The position numbers and the translations under genes were made by a program. A DNA stretch of 21,725 bases from a virus (lineage: Duplodnaviria; Heunggongvirae; Uroviricota; Caudoviricetes): IMG/VR virus record IMGVR_UViG_3300035156_000038, positions 1-21,725 of that record. One strand, given 5' to 3'. Positions 8,815-18,306 of the stretch are shown here, one piece after another (position 1 is the stretch's first letter; each line of letters starts with the position of its first letter). The notes below the pieces were generated by a model. It was not told where the DNA came from. It did not search any database and was given only the letters and a program-made list of their open reading frames with translations.

Positions 8815-9150
8815 ATGAACGAAGGTGTTGTGACGATGGTGGAAGCGCCCATCTTCGTTAAGAAGACTCATGAACTGGCGGGGTTACTGAAGCGCGTTAA
8901 GTATGGATCGGCCAAGGCCGTTGACATCCTGATTGACACGATGGAAGACAAGAATACCGAGCCGAAGCTAAAAGTAGCGTGTGCGCAATCGCTAATTGAG
9001 TACGAAGTAAAGATTACAGACCAGATTAACAAAGACCAACTAGTAAGACAGGTGGCGGAAATTAAGGCTAAGGGCCTATCTACTCCGCTACGCCCTGAAG
9101 ATAAGGCGCTATCGCCAACGGTGGACTTTAGCCGTATTCAGGAAGTCTGA
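8815..9150 (+). CDS. hypothetical protein, possible terminase small subunit
   Basis: AAAGGA RBS before ATG 8815; 111 aa, helical with a disordered C-tail. First gene of the unit that leads to terL. The TerS assignment is positional inference only. Confidence 0.5.
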   Translation: MNEGVVTMVEAPIFVKKTHELAGLLKRVKYGSAKAVDILIDTMEDKNTEPKLKVACAQSLIEYEVKITDQINKDQLVRQVAEIKAKGLSTPLRPEDKALSPTVDFSRIQEV

Positions 9151-9167
9151 TAGCTAGGTAGCAAGGC

Positions 9168-9196
9168 TTGACAAAACACGGATCGTCGCTTATACT
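9168..9196 (+). promoter_or_regulatory. sigma70-type promoter heading the tRNA array
   Basis: TTGACA-17 bp-TATACT. Confidence 0.8.
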
Positions 9197-9373
9197 GTGA
9201 CCACATGGAGATATTGGGGTATTTGATTCTCTTTCGAAAGGTAGGTGATCCTGTATTTTGTTTGGCTTCATGTAAAGTGTTCTCCTTGGGTCAGATGTGT
9301 GTGAAGCTGGTTACTTCATTGGGGTGGTTCCCGAGACACGACATCGCCGCAAACTGTAAGCGGCCAGAACATT

Positions 9374-9460
9374 GCTCCTTTCCCATAGTGGTTGATTGGA
9401 CTTGCCTTGTAAGCAAGCGGCGAAAGCCCAGCGTCCGTTCGAATCGGACAGGGAGCACCA
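9374..9460 (+). tRNA. tRNA-Thr(UGU) with a long variable arm
   Basis: Acceptor GCTCCTT/AGGGAGC, A73, CCA; anticodon arm CTTGC-CTTGTAA-GCAAG; variable arm GGC-GAAA-GCC; T arm GTCCG-TTCGAAT-CGGAC. Confidence 0.8.
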
Positions 9461-9462
9461 AA

Positions 9463-9539
9463 CCTTCTCAAGCTAATCAGGTTGAAAGCGACGGATTGAA
9501 AACCCGTAGAGCGTGGATCGTTACCACGGTGAAGGGCCA
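9463..9539 (+). tRNA. tRNA-Phe(GAA), atypical acceptor
   Basis: ACGGA-TTGAAAA-CCCGT anticodon arm; T arm CGTGG-ATCGTTA-CCACG; acceptor CCTTCTC/GTGAAGG; G73; CCA. Confidence 0.75.
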
Positions 9540-9592
9540 AACAACTGTGCATTGTAACCAGTGCTAAGCTGTTTGACAATTTAGAGGTAGGT

Positions 9593-9997
9593 ATGAAGTC
9601 GTGTAGCTCATGCCAAGTTGAGTATGAGCCGTACGGCCAGAGATGCAGCTTGTGTAAGGAATGTCGGCGTGCGTATGATAGACAGTACCACGCTAAGAGA
9701 AGCACTGCTGCAAAGCAGCGAAAGTTGGATGTGCAGCGAGCAGCCCGGATACGGAATTCCCAGTTTGTGTACGATTACTTTAAAAGTAACCCGTGCGTCG
9801 GATGTGGAGAAACGCGTATCCCATGCCTACAGTTTGACCACGTAGGAGATAAATCCCACACTGTATCCGATATGGTTAAAGGCTACTCATTAGCCAACAT
9901 CAAAGAAGAAATTAGTAAGTGCAGGGTATTGTGTGCTAACTGCCACGCTGTCAGAACAGCAGAGCAGTTCGGATGGTACTCCAACGTAGCTAAGTAA
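9593..9997 (+). CDS. free-standing HNH endonuclease
   Basis: N-terminal CxxC...CxxC; core CVGCG...LQFDH...EISKCRVLCANCH; GAGGT RBS. Confidence 0.85.
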   Translation: MKSCSSCQVEYEPYGQRCSLCKECRRAYDRQYHAKRSTAAKQRKLDVQRAARIRNSQFVYDYFKSNPCVGCGETRIPCLQFDHVGDKSHTVSDMVKGYSLANIKEEISKCRVLCANCHAVRTAEQFGWYSNVAK

Positions 9998-10003
9998 GAC
10001 AAT

Positions 10004-10090
10004 CTGTGTGTAGCCCCGTAATCAGGTAGCGGCCTCGTTTTGGAAACGAGTGGGAAACCCTTGGTGGATCGAAGCCACCCGCGCAGACCA
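10004..10090 (+). tRNA. tRNA-Pro(UGG) with an extra variable stem
   Basis: C1-G72, A73, CCA; CTCGT-TTTGGAA-ACGAG; variable GGG-AAA-CCC; T arm GGTGG-ATCGAAG-CCACC. Confidence 0.8.
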
Positions 10091-10110
10091 AGTATTTAAG
10101 TGAGAAAGAC

Positions 10111-10139
10111 TTGACAAAGATAGGAAGCTAGTGTATTAT
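10111..10139 (+). promoter_or_regulatory. sigma70-type promoter
   Basis: TTGACA-17 bp-TATTAT. Confidence 0.8.
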
Positions 10140-10163
10140 TCAAGTCTAGGCAGTAAAGAATAT

Positions 10164-10243
10164 GGGGATAGGGACTGCTAGAAGTGGTCATTCGCCTTGC
10201 ACGCGGAATATCAGCCGGGTTTGAATCCTCGGTATCTCCACCA
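10164..10243 (+). tRNA. tRNA-Ala(UGC)
   Basis: GGGGATA/TATCTCC with G3:U70; TTCGC-CTTGCAC-GCGGA; A73; CCA. Confidence 0.85.
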
Positions 10244-10251
10244 AGTTTTAC

Positions 10252-10328
10252 GGGCGAGCACCGGAGTGATCCGGCCTTCTTTTGAAGGTACAGCTAAGCA
10301 GTGGTTAGATACCGCTCCTTGTCCACCA
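10252..10328 (+). pseudogene. degenerate or atypical tRNA-like gene, anticodon undetermined
   Basis: Acceptor GGGCGAG/CTTGTCC + A + CCA; T-like arm AGTGG-TTAGATA-CCGCT; D-like arm CCGGA-GTGA-TCCGG; the anticodon arm gives no canonical 7-nt loop. Confidence 0.5.
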
Positions 10329-10454
10329 GAATCATCGCAGAAGCGGCGTGAGCTAATCTACACTCACTGAGGTCATTGTCCACCAAAAGTCAGAACGGAC
10401 GGTATTATTAACTAGGCAACATGCAGCCCCCGTAGGAAAGCATGTAAGAACAAA

Positions 10455-10528
10455 GCAGGTAATCATAAGGTGTGACGCAAGCCTTCCAAGCTTCGCTGAG
10501 TGGAGTTCGATTCTCCCTACCCGCTCCA
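10455..10528 (+). tRNA. tRNA-Gly(UCC)
   Basis: AAGC-CTTCCAA-GCTT; U73; CCA; T loop TTCGATT. Confidence 0.85.
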
Positions 10529-10534
10529 AACAGT

Positions 10535-10610
10535 ACACGTATGGCTGATCGGCTTAGGCCCCGGATTGCAAACCCGGTGTAGCTGGGTTCGATTCCCGGT
10601 ACGTGTTCCA
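10535..10610 (+). tRNA. tRNA-Cys(GCA)
   Basis: ACACGTA/TACGTGT; loop TTGCAAA; U73; CCA. Confidence 0.85.
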
Positions 10611-10713
10611 AGATAGGCACTTATGCCTTGCGCAAGCGGAAAATAAGCTGGGGCTAGCATCATCTAGCCTTGCCTTCGCCGGGAAGGGACTACAAATAAC
10701 CGGAACGAATATT

Positions 10714-10795
10714 GGGCGAGTGGCTTATGGAAACGGTACACCTACCTGCCTTAGAAGCAGGGCTTTTGCTGGTTCGAATCCAGTCTTGCCTACCA
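10714..10795 (+). tRNA. tRNA-Leu(UAG) with a short variable region
   Basis: CCTGC-CTTAGAA-GCAGG; variable region only GCTTTT; T arm GCTGG-TTCGAAT-CCAGT; A73; CCA; long D loop. Confidence 0.8.
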
Positions 10796-10801
10796 AGTTA
10801 C

Positions 10802-10890
10802 GCTGTGTTGATAGAATTCGGTTACTTCATACTTTGACTTTTAATCAAACCCATTGCCGAAAGGCAGTTACCGATTCGCCAGTTACCAGC
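10802..10890 (+). ncRNA. Y-RNA-like RNA 1 (Yrl-like, Ro60-associated)
   Basis: Terminal GCTG/CAGC stem; GAATTCGGTTAC pairs with GTTACCGATTC; shared TTACTTC motif; internal TTGA-CTTTTAA-TCAA and TGCC-GAAA-GGCA hairpins; upstream of the Ro60 gene. Confidence 0.75.
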
Positions 10891-10898
10891 AAATTTAC

Positions 10899-10982
10899 GG
10901 CTTGCCGATATAAACCGATACTTCTTCGCTAATAGCCGATAACACCGAGGGGTGCGGCGTTTCTGTTTAGCCAGTTGCAGCC
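10899..10982 (+). ncRNA. Y-RNA-like RNA 2
   Basis: 5' GGCTTGCCGAT and 3' GCCAGTTGCAGCC resemble the Ro-binding stem of Y RNAs (GGCUGGUCCGA/UUGACUAGCC); TAAAC/GTTTA stem; ATACTTC motif; CACC-GAGG-GGTG hairpin. Confidence 0.65.
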
Positions 10983-10990
10983 AGTTTTAC

Positions 10991-11095
10991 GCAGTGTTGA
11001 TTGAAACAGTTACTTCTTACCTTTGCTAAAGAGAGTTCCGTTCGAATCGGATTAATCCACGGTGGACGACCATTTCTGTTTCGCTTGTTACCTGC
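10991..11095 (+). ncRNA. Y-RNA-like RNA 3 (YrlA-like, with T arm)
   Basis: GCAG/CTGC ends; GAAACAG/CTGTTTC stem; TTACTTC motif; canonical T arm TCCG-TTCGAAT-CGGA at 11037-11051. Confidence 0.8.
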
Positions 11096-11113
11096 TTATA
11101 TTTGTAGTAGAAT

Positions 11114-11169
11114 GCCCCTACCTCTGCCAGCTAGCCCAGAGCTAGTGAGCAAGTAGGGGCTTTTGTTTT
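11114..11169 (+). terminator. terminator-like hairpin between the Y RNAs and Ro60
   Basis: GCCCCTAC/GTAGGGGC stem with a nested CTAGC/GCTAG hairpin, followed by TTTTGTTTT. Confidence 0.6.
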
Positions 11170-11209
11170 AACCACGCCCGTTAGGGTAAACCAACCAAGG
11201 AGATTGTAA

Positions 11210-12520
11210 ATGGCATCGACTAACAAAAAAGTAGCACAACCGCGTACCGCAACCACTCACGCTGGCCTAGCTGTTAAGCAGCTTGGGGCAAACGATAAGC
11301 TGGTGCGTCTGACGCTGGCACACATGCTGTTCGAAGGGCAGTTCTACGTGAACGGCCAAACATCGGCAACCCTGTTGCAATCAGCCGTGAAAGCCGCTGA
11401 CCCACGTTTCGTAGCTACGCTGGCAGAAACCGCCCGTACTGATTACAAACTGCGTCACGTGCCGCTCTACCTGATTCGTGAACTAATCCGCAATGGTGAC
11501 GCTACCGCTGCCGACATCGACAACGTGATTCGTCGCCCGGATGAAATGGGTGAACTGCTTTCGCTGTATAACAAGCCGAAGCGTCAACCGCTGTCGCATC
11601 AACTGAAGAAAGGTCTGCGTCAAGCATTTGGCCGCTTCAACGAATACTCGCTAGCCAAGTTCGACAAGAACTCCGCTGGTTACAGCATCCGTGATGTGAT
11701 GTTCATGGTACGCCCAAAGCCTGCCACGCCAGAACAGGAAGCCCTGTACAAGCGTATCGCAGACGGCACAATGGCAACCCCGGATACGTGGGAAACCGAA
11801 CTGTCGGCTGGTGCGGATAAGAAGGAAACGTTCGAACGCCTGATGGGCGAAAAGAAGTTGGGCGCTCTGGCGTTCCTGCGCAACCTGCGTAACATGGTGC
11901 AAGCTGGTATCTCCACTTCGGTGATTCGTGCTTACGCTGAAACGCTGGATGTCAAGAACGTCCTGCCATTCCGCTACATCGCCGCTGCACGTGTTGTACC
12001 GCAGTTCGAAGATATGCTGGAAGCTATGATGTTCCGTTCGCTGCAAGGCGTGGAGAAGATCAAGGGCAAGACGGTGTTGATGGTGGACGTTTCGGGTTCG
12101 ATGTTCGGTACGAAGGTATCGGCCAAGTCCGACCTTGACCGCTTCGATGCAGCAGCGGCCTTGGCTGTTCTGTGCCGTGAGATTTGCGAAGAAGTGGAAA
12201 TCTACTCCTTCAGCAATCAATCGAAGCTGGTAGCGCCTCGCCGTGGCTTTGCTCTGGTGGAAGCTATCCGTAACAGCCAGTCGCACGGCGGTACTGCGAT
12301 GGGACGTTCGTACGCTGAAATCTCGGCTAAGACTTCGTTTGACCGCATCATCTGCTTCACCGATGAGCAATCGAGCGACCGCCCAGCCAAGCCGAAGGGT
12401 AAAGGTTACATCATCAACGTTGCTAGCTACCAAAATGGCATCAACGAAGACGCATGGACTACCGTTACCGGGTTCTCGGAAGCGACTTTGGAATACATTA
12501 AGTTTGTCGAAAAGCTGTAA
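11210..12520 (+). CDS. rsr: Ro60 / TROVE-domain RNA-binding protein (TROVE + vWA)
   Basis: TROVE-like N-terminal region (GQFY, LRHVPLYL.REL.R, IRRPDEMGELL, LRNLRNM, VLPFRY) and vWA MIDAS motif VDVSGSM, GGT, FTDEQS; AAGGAG RBS. Confidence 0.93.
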   Translation: MASTNKKVAQPRTATTHAGLAVKQLGANDKLVRLTLAHMLFEGQFYVNGQTSATLLQSAVKAADPRFVATLAETARTDYKLRHVPLYLIRELIRNGDATAADIDNVIRRPDEMGELLSLYNKPKRQPLSHQLKKGLRQAFGRFNEYSLAKFDKNSAGYSIRDVMFMVRPKPATPEQEALYKRIADGTMATPDTWETELSAGADKKETFERLMGEKKLGALAFLRNLRNMVQAGISTSVIRAYAETLDVKNVLPFRYIAAARVVPQFEDMLEAMMFRSLQGVEKIKGKTVLMVDVSGSMFGTKVSAKSDLDRFDAAAALAVLCREICEEVEIYSFSNQSKLVAPRRGFALVEAIRNSQSHGGTAMGRSYAEISAKTSFDRIICFTDEQSSDRPAKPKGKGYIINVASYQNGINEDAWTTVTGFSEATLEYIKFVEKL

Positions 12521-12526
12521 AGCCTC

Positions 12527-12555
12527 TTGACAAGCAAGCTAGCTAGGTGTATAAT
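12527..12555 (+). promoter_or_regulatory. consensus sigma70 promoter
   Basis: TTGACA-17 bp-TATAAT, a perfect match. Confidence 0.9.
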
Positions 12556-12587
12556 CACTCCACTTAGCTAGCAAAGACCTTACAAAA

Positions 12588-12679
12588 GGTCTTAACTATA
12601 ACTCTGGTGTTAGAATCGGTTACTTCTTCAACTGGTGAAAACAAAGCTCCGATTCGCCTTTTCCGGGTTATAGTTAAGA
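12588..12679 (+). ncRNA. Y-RNA-like RNA 4, downstream of Ro60
   Basis: 13-bp terminal stem TCTTAACTATAAC/GTTATAGTTAAGA; GAATCGG/CCGATTC stem and TTACTTC motif, near-identical to those of RNA 1. Confidence 0.7.
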
Positions 12680-12685
12680 TTTTAT

Positions 12686-12768
12686 GTGCGTGTGGCTTAG
12701 GTAAATTGGCACAGCCACCCGGCTCAAAACCGGGGCTTTTGCTGGTTCGAATCCAGTCACGCATACCA
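12686..12768 (+). tRNA. tRNA-Leu(CAA) with a short variable region
   Basis: CCCGG-CTCAAAA-CCGGG; variable GCTTTT; T arm identical to Leu(UAG); A73; CCA. Confidence 0.8.
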
Positions 12769-12776
12769 AGAACAAT

Positions 12777-12862
12777 TGCGAGGTAGAGAGTAGGGGTAGC
12801 TCGTCAGGCTCATAACCTGAACCTTAATTGGCTCGGCGGTTCGATTCCGCCCTTCGCAACCA
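12777..12862 (+). tRNA. tRNA-Met(CAU), initiator-like, with an expanded variable region
   Basis: TCAGG-CTCATAA-CCTGA and GGTAGCTCG D region resemble fMet tRNA; U1-A72; 14-nt variable region; CCA. Confidence 0.8.
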
Positions 12863-12867
12863 GAATT

Positions 12868-13257
12868 ATGCATACTAAAACTAAAGGAGACATCGCAGAG
12901 GCGATGGTAGCCGCACGGCTCCTACAAACAGGTGCGGCTGTACTAAAGCCGATGGGCGACAACCTGCGATACGATCTTGTAATTGACCGCGACGGGAAGT
13001 TCTACCGGGTTCAGTGCAAGATGGGTAAGTTGAAAGCTGGTAGTGTTCATTTCAGCACTTGTAGTAGTACCGCTAAGGAAAGCTACGAAGGGCAGATTGA
13101 ATACTTCGGCGTGTACTGCCCAGATAATGACGAATCCTACCTAATCCCGATTGAGGATTGCAAGGTAGGCCGTCAAAAGAGTTTGCGAGTGCAGGAAGCT
13201 AAGAACGGCCAAACAGCGGGTGTCACTTTAGCAGGGAAGTACAAACTGGGTCTATAA
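12868..13257 (+). CDS. PD-(D/E)XK endonuclease (PDDEXK_5 / I-Ssp6803I-like)
   Basis: KGDIAE, RYDLVID, RVQCK, Y..QIEYFGVY and YLIP motifs. The last codons overlap the 5' end of tRNA-Lys. Confidence 0.85.
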   Translation: MHTKTKGDIAEAMVAARLLQTGAAVLKPMGDNLRYDLVIDRDGKFYRVQCKMGKLKAGSVHFSTCSSTAKESYEGQIEYFGVYCPDNDESYLIPIEDCKVGRQKSLRVQEAKNGQTAGVTLAGKYKLGL

Positions 13258-13323
13258 CTTAACTGGTTAAAGTAGGTGGCTTTTAACCATCAAATCGGGG
13301 TTCAAGTCCCTGTGGACTCACCA
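13248..13323 (+). tRNA. tRNA-Lys(UUU)
   Basis: GGTGG-CTTTTAA-CCATC; acceptor GGGTCTA/TGGACTC; CCA. Confidence 0.9.
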
Positions 13324-18086: not shown

Positions 18087-18115
18087 TTGACAAAGCTAGC
18101 TAGGTAGTGTATTAT
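18087..18115 (+). promoter_or_regulatory. sigma70-type promoter
   Basis: TTGACA-17 bp-TATTAT, just after the AACGCCC-TC-GGGCGTT hairpin. Confidence 0.8.
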
Positions 18116-18123
18116 GCAGGCAT

Positions 18124-18212
18124 GGAAGATTAACCAGCCGGGGCGCTGGCGGTGATTGCTAATCACTTGGTACGCACCCGCGTATGGCAGTCGGGATGTC
18201 AGTCTTCCGCCA
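18124..18212 (+). tRNA. tRNA-Ser(GCU)
   Basis: GGAAGAT/GTCTTCC; GGTGA-TTGCTAA-TCACT; long variable arm; atypical T loop GTCGGGA; G73; CCA. Confidence 0.85.
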
Positions 18213-18220
18213 AGAACAAT

Positions 18221-18306
18221 GGAGAGTAGCGTACAGGGTACAAAGCAGCCTTGAAAACTGTGCCAGTCTTGATCGGCTGATGGTTCGATTCCTTTATTCT
18301 CCGCCA
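18221..18306 (+). tRNA. tRNA-Ser(UGA)
   Basis: GGAGAGT/ATTCTCC; loop CTTGAAA; long variable arm; G73; CCA. Confidence 0.85.

What the first reader, a model, noticed from the sequence alone, without database searches (positions are those of the whole stretch)
10833..11051. Y-like RNAs display anticodon-loop mimics: possible decoys for anticodon nucleases
Seen: RNA 1 carries TTGA-CTTTTAA-TCAA, whose 7-nt loop is identical to the anticodon loop of this phage's tRNA-Lys(UUU). RNA 3 carries TTGCTAA, identical to the tRNA-Ser(GCU) loop, on a bulged stem and followed by a canonical T arm. RNA 2 (CTAATAG) and RNA 4 (CTGGTGA) have weaker loop-like heptamers at the equivalent position. Established: tRNA-Lys(UUU) is the target of PrrC and of PARIS AriB. 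Inference: Ro60-stabilised, non-aminoacylatable anticodon decoys that absorb or inhibit host anticodon nucleases, each aimed at a different isoacceptor.
Basis: inference. Interest (0 to 1): 0.78.

Follow-up and report, generated by a model that had tools for sequence, protein, structure and literature searches.

The report
Anticodon-loop mimics on phage Y RNAs
Small RNAs that flank this phage's Ro60 gene end in hairpins that copy tRNA anticodon stem-loops, a trait shared by many related phage and bacterial Y RNAs; they may be baits for tRNA-cutting defence enzymes, but that function is untested.

Summary

Four Y-type RNAs flank a Ro60 (TROVE+vWA) gene inside the tRNA array of an 85.7-kb uncultured phage.
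- RNA 1 carries a 5-bp stem with the 7-nt loop CUUUUAA (10833-10849).
- RNA 3 carries UUGCUAA on a bulged stem, followed by a canonical T arm.
- The heptamers named for RNA 2 and RNA 4 are not closed by stems.

Within the window alone the loop matches are only mildly unusual (P about 0.03). The comparative evidence is much stronger.
- A covariance model of the scaffold finds 170 units beside Ro60 genes in 88 phage loci and 135 in 80 bacterial loci. All lie on the Ro60 strand.
- The hairpin after the conserved UACUUC motif prefers a 7-nt loop with consensus C-U-N-N-N-A-A.
- That loop type makes up 36% of these hairpins, against 1.4% of background hairpins.
- 32% of the loops are identical to genuine anticodon loops, against 1.3% of background.
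- Near-identical RNAs differ mainly at positions 34 and 35.

RNA 1 also reproduces 15 nt of the E. coli tRNA-Lys anticodon arm, including the PARIS AriB site UAAUC|A. The phage's own tRNA-Lys has C at position 39.

Earlier notes of this scan report the same trait on other DNA.

The parts
10796..10897 (+). Y-type RNA 1. Outer stem 10802-10808 / 10885-10890 with bulged T10806. GUUGAU internal loop. Inner stem 10814-10822 / 10870-10877. UUAC motif at 10822-10825.
   Evidence: R1 covariance model 35.9 bits, E 2.5e-6. Stems covary across 38 seed units.
10833..10849 (+). Anticodon-stem-loop mimic of RNA 1: 5-bp stem UUUGA/UCAAA with loop CUUUUAA (Lys UUU).
   Evidence: Sequence and RNAfold. 15 nt (10834-10848) are identical to E. 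coli K-12 tRNA-Lys positions 28-42. That 15-mer occurs in K-12 only in its six tRNA-Lys genes. It contains UAAUCA, the AriB site described in PMC12409363.
10855..10866 (+). GNRA hairpin of RNA 1 (UGCC-GAAA-GGCA). The same hairpin is conserved in RNA 1-type units of L001, L002, L005, L006 and L062.
10893..10989 (+). Y-type RNA 2, a weak family member with no convincing anticodon-like hairpin.
   Evidence: R1 22.2 bits, E 0.0024 in the own-genome search. Not found at E<=0.01 in the large search.
10985..11102 (+). Y-type RNA 3, YrlA-like but without a D arm. Outer stem 10991-10997 / 11090-11095. Inner stem 11003-11009 / 11076-11082.
   Evidence: R1 40.1 bits, E 1.7e-7.
11023..11029 (+). UUGCUAA heptamer of RNA 3 (Ser GCU-like) on a stem with a 4-nt bulge. 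It sits at the position of the (C/A)UGCUAA loops of YrlA-type relatives.
11037..11051 (+). T arm of RNA 3 (UCCG-UUCGAAU-CGGA).
   Evidence: Sequence; matches the tRNA T-loop consensus.
11056..11066 (+). Short hairpin UCCA-CGG-UGGA at the position of the YrlA 'acceptor-like' stem-loop.
   Evidence: Sequence; element order compared with Chen 2014.
11113..11170 (+). Strong hairpin followed by a T run: the likely terminator of the tRNA/Y RNA transcription unit.
   Evidence: RNAfold -29.7 kcal/mol, z -3.8.
11210..12520 (+). Ro60 orthologue (TROVE + vWA).
   Evidence: Pfam TROVE E 1e-11. phrog_850 E 7e-37. Thermus phage phiLo Ro60, PDB 9L5Y/9KOP, E 7e-19.
12595..12675 (+). Y-type RNA 4, a short class with apical UUC-AACUGGU-GAA. 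It lies behind a consensus sigma-70 promoter at 12527-12555.
   Evidence: R1 51.8 bits. Promoter 12/12.
13248..13323 (+). The phage's own tRNA-Lys(UUU). Its anticodon arm is GGUGG-CUUUUAA-CCAUC, so positions 36-41 read UAACCA (C at 39).
   Evidence: ARAGORN and Rfam.
18124..18213 (+). tRNA-Ser(GCU)-like gene with loop UUGCUAA (18156-18162), missed by ARAGORN.
   Evidence: The neighbouring stretch 18215-18337 matches annotated tRNA-Ser genes of Klebsiella phages.

Best explanation
Shown: the four RNAs are Ro60-partner Y RNAs of the bacterial/phage YrlA lineage. Each has a covarying two-part stem with a bulged U and a GNYGAW internal loop (the likely Ro60 site), followed by the conserved YUAC-UUC motif and a variable apical module.

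Shown statistically: in RNA 1, in degraded form in RNA 3, and in roughly a quarter to 40% of homologous units (by stem length required), the first apical hairpin copies a tRNA anticodon stem-loop.
- It has a 4-5-bp stem and a 7-nt loop with C32, U33, A37 and A38.
- The wobble position is rich in G and U and poor in A.
- The middle triplet changes between close relatives.

Inferred: the Ro60-Y RNA particle uses this hairpin to present one isoacceptor's anticodon loop to a protein that reads anticodon loops. The most likely role is a non-aminoacylatable bait or competitive inhibitor for tRNA anticodon nucleases.

Inferred for RNA 1: it copies the enterobacterial-type tRNA-Lys arm, including the PARIS AriB recognition and cleavage sequence U36-A-A-U-C|A41. 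The phage's own tRNA-Lys and tRNA-Thr(UGU) carry a changed position 39, as the AriB-resistant T5 tRNA-Lys does.
For: Scaffold:
- 14 of 14 predicted pairs show compensatory changes.
- Model R1 finds 170 units in 545 kb of phage loci and 135 in 464 kb of bacterial loci, all on the Ro60 strand.
- It finds exactly four in the 85.7-kb genome, all beside Ro60.
- Rfam YrlA scores 55.9 and 38.8 bits on R1 units of Xanthomonas phage Tenjo.

Mimicry:
- Hairpins with a Y-U-NNN-R-N 7-nt loop and a stem of at least 4 bp occur in 32 of 129 non-redundant phage units. Shuffles give 2.4 on average, 8 at most.
- In bacterial units the count is 33 of 112, against 2.0 in shuffles.
- With stems of at least 5 bp, 7 nt is the most enriched loop length (28 against 10.5), followed by 9 nt (19 against 9.8).
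- CU...AA loops make up 26 of 72 hairpins, against 1.4% of 24,262 background hairpins (P 8e-30).
- 23 of 72 loops are identical to genuine anticodon loops of tRNAs in the same loci, against 1.3% of background (P 1e-25).
- A34 occurs in 3 of 65 loops, against 26% background (P 7e-6).

Variability:
- Five units (L017, L018, L022, L024, L025) differ at only about 2-4 of about 78 positions (my count from the alignment) outside the loop.
- Their loops read CUU, GCU, GCU, UUU and UUU.
- Pairwise difference is 0.8 at position 34 and 0.6 at position 35. Third codon positions of the adjacent Ro60 genes differ by 0.15-0.33.

RNA 1:
- AriB needs U36AAUC|A41, and U39A abolishes cleavage. Its targets are Lys UUU, Thr UGU and Asn GUU, and modifications are not required (PMC12409363).
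- The phage's own tRNA-Lys reads UAACCA and its tRNA-Thr(UGU) reads UAAGCA.

Context:
- The phage also encodes an RNA ligase.
- A Ro60-like protein of phage Bas63 counters the Ppl defence system (10.1101/2024.10.10.617714).
- YrlA was already proposed as an anticodon-nuclease inhibitor (PMC7790460).
Against: - No expression, binding, cleavage or protection data exist.
[quoted passage not shown] It is about 1 in 256 for a given host once the loop matches.
- Stems of other units follow the conserved CUUC motif rather than real tRNA stems. Only 1 unit's 15-mer, among the 150 aligned phage units, matches a phage tRNA arm.
- The trait is as common in bacterial rsr loci, so phage counter-defence cannot be its general purpose.
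- AriB also needs D-loop contacts (PMC12409363), which a bare hairpin lacks.
- The commonest mimic triplet, GCU, is not, to my knowledge, a known major nuclease target.
- More than half of the units have other apical loops, for example the UUGGGGAAAU and UUUGGAU classes.
- Only two of this window's four RNAs carry the feature.
Confidence: 0.4

Rival explanations
1. Relic or structural element. The hairpin is the retained anticodon arm of the tRNA (or tRNA dimer) from which YrlA-type RNAs arose. It is kept as a stable U-turn hairpin for folding or nuclease resistance. The triplet is simply unconstrained and carries no isoacceptor-specific function.
For: - The hairpin lies 5' of the T arm, where the first tRNA's anticodon arm would lie in the dimeric-tRNA origin model (10.1101/312249).
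- Positions 34 and 35 are near-uniform in composition.
- The units sit inside tRNA arrays.
Against: - The loop geometry and C32/U33/A37/A38 are kept between phages and Acidobacteriota whose Ro60 proteins are only about 45% identical.
- Short units keep this hairpin while lacking T and D arms.
- A34 is avoided as in real tRNAs. Free drift would not do that.
- Positions 34 and 35 vary faster than third codon positions.
Confidence: 0.2
2. Handle for a tRNA-binding effector other than a nuclease. Candidates are anticodon-loop modification enzymes (t6A, i6A and queuosine machinery), a synthetase, or a partner that the Y RNA tethers to Ro60, in the way D. radiodurans Y RNA tethers PNPase.
For: - Most triplets end in U36 or A36 followed by A37-A38. 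From general knowledge, these are the determinants of the t6A and i6A classes.
- YrlA is modified by TruB and DusA (PMC4201824).
- Phage phiLo Ro60, its Y RNAs and host PNPase form a ternary complex (PMC12135203).
Against: - No enzyme-specific signature was found.
- Rapid change of the triplet between close relatives is not expected for a housekeeping enzyme handle.
- Nothing was tested.
Confidence: 0.15
3. Codon-directed targeting. The mimic pairs with its codon in an empty ribosomal A site, for example on ribosomes stalled after tRNA depletion. This brings Ro60 and an exonuclease to the stalled complex.
For: - The only direct support is that the loops are decoding-competent in sequence.
- Chen 2014 raised ribosomes as possible partners of the tRNA-like module.
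Against: - There is no acceptor end and no EF-Tu handle.
- In YrlA-type units the hairpin occupies the variable-arm position, not the anticodon-arm position, of the tRNA-like fold.
- The idea is entirely untested.
Confidence: 0.07
4. Chance resemblance in AU-rich hairpin loops, of no significance.
For: - Within the window alone P is only about 0.03.
- One of the three heptamer matches is clearly accidental.
- RNA 2 and RNA 4 fail the test.
Against: Family-wide enrichment has P values of 1e-14 to 1e-30 against shuffles and against background hairpins, in two independent sets of loci.
Confidence: 0.03

Closest known systems
YrlA / bacterial and phage Y RNAs bound by Ro60 (Rsr); Rfam RF02553; Chen et al. 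2014 (PMC4201824); Wang et al. 2018 (10.1101/312249)
   Same: - Encoded next to Ro60 and on its strand, often in several copies.
- Terminal stem with a bulged helix and a GNCGAA-like motif.
- Conserved YUAY after the stem.
- RNA 3 and many relatives have the T arm and an acceptor-like hairpin, and the relatives also have the D arm.
- Rfam YrlA scores 55.9 bits on a relative.
   Different: - Published YrlA is said to lack an anticodon loop, and the stem-loop before the T arm is described only as a less conserved 'V' arm.
- Here that hairpin has anticodon-arm geometry and sequence.
- It also stands alone on short units that lack T and D arms.
- The window's own RNAs do not reach any Rfam YrlA score.
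- RNA 3 has no D arm.
D. radiodurans Yrn1, modelled with an 'anticodon arm' (Chen et al. 2014)
   Same: A Y RNA drawn with a 5-bp stem-loop at a tRNA anticodon-arm position.
   Different: The Yrn1 loop has 6 nt, and no anticodon-loop consensus or variability was reported. Its arm order relative to the 5' end also differs.
Proposal that the YrlA tRNA-like domain competitively inhibits an SOS-induced anticodon nuclease in Salmonella (Hughes et al. 2020, PMC7790460)
   Same: The same functional idea: a Ro60-linked tRNA mimic that is not itself cleaved and competes for a tRNase.
   Different: That proposal rests on the tRNA elbow of a YrlA without an anticodon loop. Here the mimic is the anticodon stem-loop itself, with isoacceptor-like identity.
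Phage T5 tRNA-Lys/Thr/Asn variants that neutralise PARIS AriB (PMC11464382, PMC12409363)
   Same: - Phage RNAs in a tRNA array that deal with an anticodon-arm nuclease.
- This phage's own tRNA-Lys and tRNA-Thr(UGU) carry a changed position 39, like the T5 tRNA-Lys.
   Different: T5 supplies functional, cleavage-resistant replacement tRNAs. RNA 1 here is a non-chargeable hairpin that keeps the sensitive sequence UAAUCA.
Bas63 gp130, a Ro60-like protein that counters the Ppl defence system (PhageMaP preprint 10.1101/2024.10.10.617714)
   Same: A phage Ro60-like gene next to tRNA genes, with an experimentally shown anti-defence phenotype. The authors suspect that some of the neighbouring 'tRNAs' are Y RNAs.
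   Different: The protein is too distant to be found by tblastn with this Ro60. No Y RNAs were defined and no anticodon mimicry was described.

Membership tests
Ro60-associated Y RNA (YrlA lineage) | Encoded within about 4 kb of a Ro60 orthologue, on the same strand | tested here: met
   All four units lie within 420 nt of the TROVE+vWA gene, on the + strand. All 305 R1 hits in related loci are on the Ro60 strand.
Ro60-associated Y RNA (YrlA lineage) | 5' and 3' ends pair into a long stem with a bulged helix, supported by covariation | tested here: met
   14 of 14 pairs show compensatory changes, and a bulged U is conserved.
Ro60-associated Y RNA (YrlA lineage) | GNCGAA(N)G motif near the 5' end | tested here: inconclusive
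   The window has GUUGAU, GCCGAU, GUUGAU and GGUGUU. Relatives have GGCGUA, AGCGAU and GGUGAA. These are similar to the published motif but not identical.
Ro60-associated Y RNA (YrlA lineage) | Conserved YUAY after the stem | tested here: met
   UUAC or AUAC is present in all four units, and UAC is invariant in the 38 seeds.
YrlA proper (tRNA-like domain) | T arm, acceptor-like stem-loop and D arm in that order | tested here: not met
   RNA 3 has the T arm and a short hairpin but no D arm. RNAs 1, 2 and 4 have none of the three. Relatives such as L001:2307-2455 and L091:2807-2951 have all three.
YrlA proper (Rfam RF02553) | Score at or above the gathering threshold (69 bits) | tested here: not met
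   No YrlA match in 9000-13300 even at E<=10. Tenjo relatives score 55.9 and 38.8 bits.
Ro60-associated Y RNA | Bound by Ro60 in vivo | not testable with these tools
   Needs co-immunoprecipitation or a gel-shift assay.
tRNA anticodon stem-loop (as a mimic) | 5-bp stem and 7-nt loop with Y32, U33, R37 | tested here: met
   RNA 1 (10833-10849) meets all of these. RNA 3 meets the loop features only, because its stem is bulged. RNA 2 and RNA 4 do not.
tRNA anticodon stem-loop (as a mimic) | Loop sequences drawn from the repertoire of real anticodon loops, with A34 avoided | tested here: met
   23 of 72 loops are identical to real loops, against 1.3% of background. A34 occurs in 3 of 65 loops.
Canonical tRNA | Acceptor stem with a free 3' end, cloverleaf detected by tRNA finders | tested here: not met
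   Neither ARAGORN nor Rfam tRNA calls any of the four units.
Substrate of PARIS AriB | U36-A-A-U39-C40|A41 in the anticodon arm | tested here: met
   RNA 1 reads UAAUCA at the equivalent positions. The criterion is taken from PMC12409363.
Substrate of PARIS AriB | D-loop U16/U17 contact with the second AriB monomer | tested here: not met
   RNA 1 has no D arm. The criterion is taken from PMC12409363. RNA 1 may therefore bind AriB without being cut like a tRNA, but this is inference.

The most novel reading that the evidence does not exclude
Ro60-Y RNA particles of phages and bacteria carry an exchangeable anticodon-arm 'address'. Each Y RNA would be an isoacceptor-specific bait for tRNA-targeting nucleases, and the triplet would evolve under an arms race.

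In this phage, RNA 1 would be a bait for a PARIS/AriB-like nuclease. It keeps the sensitive tRNA-Lys sequence UAAUCA. It would work alongside the phage's own position-39 escape variants of tRNA-Lys and tRNA-Thr(UGU), giving a two-pronged defence of translation.
Probability: 0.17. Interest if true: 0.85.

Novelty: new variant of a known kind. Interest (0 to 1): 0.66.

Why it matters
The function of bacterial and phage Y RNAs, and of the tRNA-like module of YrlA in particular, is still open. Published work states that YrlA lacks an anticodon loop.

A widespread anticodon-arm mimic whose triplet changes between close relatives gives that question a concrete, testable handle: which anticodon-loop-reading proteins do these particles engage?

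If the partners are tRNA-cutting immune or toxin nucleases, Ro60-Y RNA particles would be a new class of RNA-based anti-tRNase devices. They would be shared by phages (counter-defence) and bacteria (protection from toxins), and would complement the known strategies of tRNA replacement and tRNA repair.

Tried and rejected
- **RNAfold on the variable domains.** Weak A-U hairpins are often not predicted, so I replaced this with explicit enumeration of hairpins.
- **Reverse-complement control.** It is uninformative, because CU-NNN-AA reads UU-NNN-AG on the other strand and still fits the motif.
- **Whole-arm mimicry as a general rule.** Only one unit's 15-mer, among the 150 aligned phage units, equals a phage tRNA arm, so in general the stems are not copied from tRNAs.
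- **U39 enrichment as a general AriB-site signal.** The trend is weak (9 of 17 and 8 of 12, against 23 of 93 in phage tRNAs), and UAAUCA occurs only in this window's RNA 1. I did not generalise it.
- **Host assignment.**
  - The closest cultured relatives are only 41-54% identical in protein: Pseudomonas, Ralstonia and Xanthomonas phages.
  - Relatives cannot be drawn for a virus record.
  - A taxon-wide pattern search could not be centred on E. coli.
- **Rfam.** It gives no Y RNA hit in the window.
- **Ralstonia phage RsoM2USA.** It has the closest cultured Ro60 but no R1 unit within 3 kb.
- **RNA repair genes.** No RtcB or polynucleotide kinase was found in the genome.
- **Formal covariation count on the mimic stems.** I did not run it, because the hairpins had been selected for pairing and the test would be circular.
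Full report
**Setting**

The window is the first 21.7 kb of an 85.7-kb uncultured phage genome with 51.7% G+C.

A gene at 11210-12520 encodes a Ro60 orthologue.
- Pfam gives TROVE at E 1e-11, with weaker Ro60-vWA matches.
- PHROG 850 'RNA-binding protein' scores E 7e-37.
- The solved Ro60 of Thermus phage phiLo (9L5Y/9KOP) matches over residues 42-432 at E 7e-19.

The gene sits in a tRNA array. ARAGORN tRNAs. Several more tRNA-like genes are seen by Rfam or by eye, including a tRNA-Ser(GCU)-like gene at 18124-18213 with loop UUGCUAA.

**The RNAs**

Three tandem repeats upstream of Ro60 and one downstream share a scaffold:
- an outer stem with a bulged U;
- a conserved internal loop (GUUGAU-type on the 5' side, GCCAGUU-type on the 3' side);
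- an inner stem;
- the motif UUAC-UUC;
- a variable apical module.

An alignment of 38 short homologues from related loci gave a consensus of 14 pairs, and all 14 show compensatory changes.

A covariance model built from that alignment (R1) gave these results:
- 170 units at E<=0.01 in 545 kb around Ro60 genes of 88 phage contigs plus the window, every one on the Ro60 strand;
- 135 units in 464 kb around 80 bacterial Ro60 genes, mostly Acidobacteriota, again all on that strand;
- units in the cultured phages Xanthomonas phage Tenjo, Caulobacter phage CcrColossus and crAss001;
- exactly four hits in this phage's whole genome: 12595-12675 (51.8 bits), 10985-11102 (40.1), 10796-10897 (35.9) and 10893-10989 (22.2).

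Rfam's YrlA model does not reach the window's RNAs. It does score 55.9 and 38.8 bits (E 7e-12 and 6e-7, below the gathering score of 69) on R1 units of phage Tenjo that carry T, acceptor-like and D arms.

These are therefore Y RNAs of the YrlA lineage. This is a known kind: Chen et al. 2014 reported such RNAs beside Ro60 in 254 bacteria and 22 phages.

A near-consensus promoter at 10111-10139 and a strong hairpin plus T run at 11113-11170 bracket the upstream array. A perfect consensus promoter at 12527-12555 precedes RNA 4.

**Checking the observation**

RNA 1 is as described, and better. Positions 10833-10849 form a 5-bp stem (UUUGA/UCAAA) and the 7-nt loop CUUUUAA, which is the loop of the phage's tRNA-Lys(UUU).

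RNA 3 has UUGCUAA at 11023-11029, which is the loop of the phage's tRNA-Ser(GCU)-like gene. It is followed by a canonical T arm at 11037-11051. Its stem needs a 4-nt bulge, and a triloop fold competes with it.

The heptamers named for RNA 2 and RNA 4 are not closed by helices. RNA 4 belongs to a class with a conserved UGGUGAAAAC tip rather than a conserved U33.

Taken alone, the window is weak evidence. The four variable domains hold 3 heptamer matches to the 18 tRNA anticodon loops I compiled in this window. One match lies in a stem and is accidental. Shuffles give P(>=2) = 0.03.

**Comparative test**

I examined the first about 22 nt after the inner stem in non-redundant units (no pair more than 85% similar).

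| Measure | Phage units | Bacterial units | Expectation |
|---|---|---|---|
| Hairpin with Y-U-NNN-R-N 7-nt loop, stem >=4 bp | 32 of 129 | 33 of 112 | shuffle mean 2.4 (max 8); 2.0 (max 7) |
| Same, stem >=5 bp | 18 | 14 | 0.9; 0.8 |
| 7-nt loops, stem >=5 bp | 28 | 28 | 10.5; 11.7 |

With stems of at least 5 bp, 7 nt is the most enriched loop length in the phage set. 9 nt is also raised (19 against 9.8).

The loop profile over 56 hairpins is C32 61%, U33 79%, near-uniform at 34 and 35, U36 43%, A37 59% and A38 61%.

Against 24,262 background hairpins of the same geometry in the same loci:
- CU...AA loops are 1.4% of background, compared with 26 of 72 in Y units (P 8e-30);
- 23 of 72 Y-unit loops are identical to an anticodon loop of one of 427 ARAGORN tRNAs in these loci, compared with 1.3% of background loops (P 1e-25).

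The wobble position is G or U in most loops and A in only 3 of 65, against a 26% background (P 7e-6). Real bacterial tRNAs show the same bias.

The triplets seen include GCU (the most frequent), UGU, UCU, GUU, UUU, CUU, GAU, CGU, UGA, UAA, GAA, GUG and GUA.

**Variability**

A sub-class with stem UAGA/UCUA is nearly invariant over about 78 nt in L017, L018, L022, L024 and L025. Its loops, however, read CU-CUU-AA, CU-GCU-AA, CA-GCU-AA, CU-UUU-AA and CU-UUU-AA. More distant members carry UGU, UCU, GUU, AUU, UUA and UAC.

Pairwise differences are 0.8 at position 34 and 0.6 at position 35. Third codon positions of the adjacent Ro60 genes differ by 0.15-0.33, and about 3-5% of the RNA outside the loop differs.

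This fits diversifying change, or module exchange, at the 'anticodon'. With only two sites and shared ancestry it is suggestive, not proof.

**Position in the tRNA-like fold**

In YrlA-type relatives the order is stem, YUAY, this hairpin, T arm, acceptor-like hairpin, D arm, stem. The hairpin therefore occupies what Chen et al. called the less conserved 'V' arm.

Rfam's YrlA consensus has no such hairpin, and Wang et al. state that YrlA lacks the anticodon loop. Short units keep only this hairpin.

The anticodon-like hairpin thus adds to the published description of a known RNA family. I found no paper that describes it. The two reviews by Sim and Wolin could not be read.

**RNA 1 and PARIS**

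Fifteen nucleotides (10834-10848) equal positions 28-42 of E. coli K-12 tRNA-Lys(UUU). That 15-mer occurs in K-12 only in its six tRNA-Lys genes.

Belukhina et al. (PMC12409363) report the following for the PARIS nuclease AriB:
- it cuts tRNA-Lys(UUU) at U36AAUC|A41;
- it needs the UAAU sequence, and U39A abolishes cleavage;
- it does not need tRNA modifications;
- it does need a D-loop contact.

RNA 1 keeps UAAUCA. The phage's own tRNA-Lys reads UAACCA and its tRNA-Thr(UGU) reads UAAGCA. The phage tRNAs therefore look like escape variants of the T5 kind, while the Y RNA displays the sensitive sequence.

This is inference. The host is unknown, other units' stems are not copied from tRNAs, UAAUCA is unique to this unit, and a hairpin without a D arm may bind AriB but is unlikely to be cut like a tRNA.

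**Function**

None of this shows what the hairpins do.

The bait or competitive-inhibitor reading has three points in its favour:
- it fits the triplet variability;
- it fits the link between Ro60/Y RNA operons and tRNA damage (PMC7790460), where the same idea was raised for YrlA;
- a Ro60-like protein of phage Bas63 counters the Ppl defence system.

The phage also has an RNA ligase, but no RtcB or polynucleotide kinase.

Against a purely phage-specific reading, bacterial Ro60 loci show the trait just as often.

The rivals are a retained tRNA relic, a handle for modification enzymes or another effector, and codon-directed delivery to ribosomes. I put the bait model at about 0.4, and the existence of genuine anticodon-arm mimicry at about 0.85-0.9.

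**Earlier notes of this scan**

Notes on other genomes report the same trait in actinobacterial phages, lake phages and Bacteroidota. My analysis was made independently on different DNA and agrees with them.

Noticed in passing
window 10164-10243: tRNA-like gene missed by ARAGORN and Rfam. It has a 7-bp acceptor stem (GGGGAUA/UAUCUCC), ends in CCACCA, and has an anticodon arm UUCGC-CUUGCAC-GCGGA (UGC, Ala-like).
   Followed up: no
window 10244-10530: A stretch of about 290 nt that begins with the same AGTTTTACG leader as the Y units and ends with a T arm plus CCA (about 10498-10528). It could be a tRNA with a long insertion or another structured RNA. Neither Rfam nor ARAGORN calls it.
   Followed up: no
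window 10611-10713: Structured spacer between tRNA-Cys and tRNA-Leu with several G+C-rich hairpins (RNAfold -33 kcal/mol, z only -1.2). It matches no family.
   Followed up: no
window 12698-12757 and 10714-10795: A partial tRNA-like element (Rfam tRNA 25.4 bits, loop CUCAAAA) has a variable region and T arm nearly identical to those of tRNA-Leu(UAG) at 10714-10795. This suggests a duplicated tRNA half.
   Followed up: no
window 18220-18306 and 9463-9536: Two more tRNA genes missed by ARAGORN. One is a long-variable-arm tRNA with loop CUUGAAA (Ser UGA; Rfam calls it tRNA-Sec at 29 bits). The other is a tRNA-Phe(GAA)-like gene (Rfam tRNA 35.9 bits).
   Followed up: partly
window 12527-12555, 10111-10139, 18090-18118: A repeated promoter cassette: TTGACA, a spacer containing the palindrome AGCTAGCTAG, then TATAAT-like. 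It heads each tRNA/Y RNA block.
   Followed up: no
window 12868-13257: A PD-(D/E)XK endonuclease gene (PF11645, E 6e-36) is inserted in the tRNA array. It may be a homing-type endonuclease.
   Followed up: no
G000:C1:73928-74800 (minus strand; L174:629-1501): RNA ligase (PF09414 E 1e-16; phrog_968 E 7.5e-47). No RtcB or polynucleotide kinase was found in the genome.
   Followed up: partly
related loci, e.g. L076:2335-2409, L071:2098-2172, L082:2379-2452: A separate class of short Y units has an almost invariant tip, CUUGGGGAAAU(A). Another class has UUC-UUUGGAU-GAA. Both are conserved across distant phages and neither is explained by anticodon mimicry.
   Followed up: no
L009:2084-2190: A Y-type unit whose apical module is a complete, normally ordered tRNA-like body (D arm, anticodon-like arm, T arm) rather than the permuted YrlA order.
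   Followed up: no
window 10796-10801, 10893-10898, 10985-10990, 10244-10252: Each Y unit starts with (A/T)TTTACG directly after the CCA end of the preceding tRNA or after the previous unit. This may be a shared processing site.
   Followed up: no
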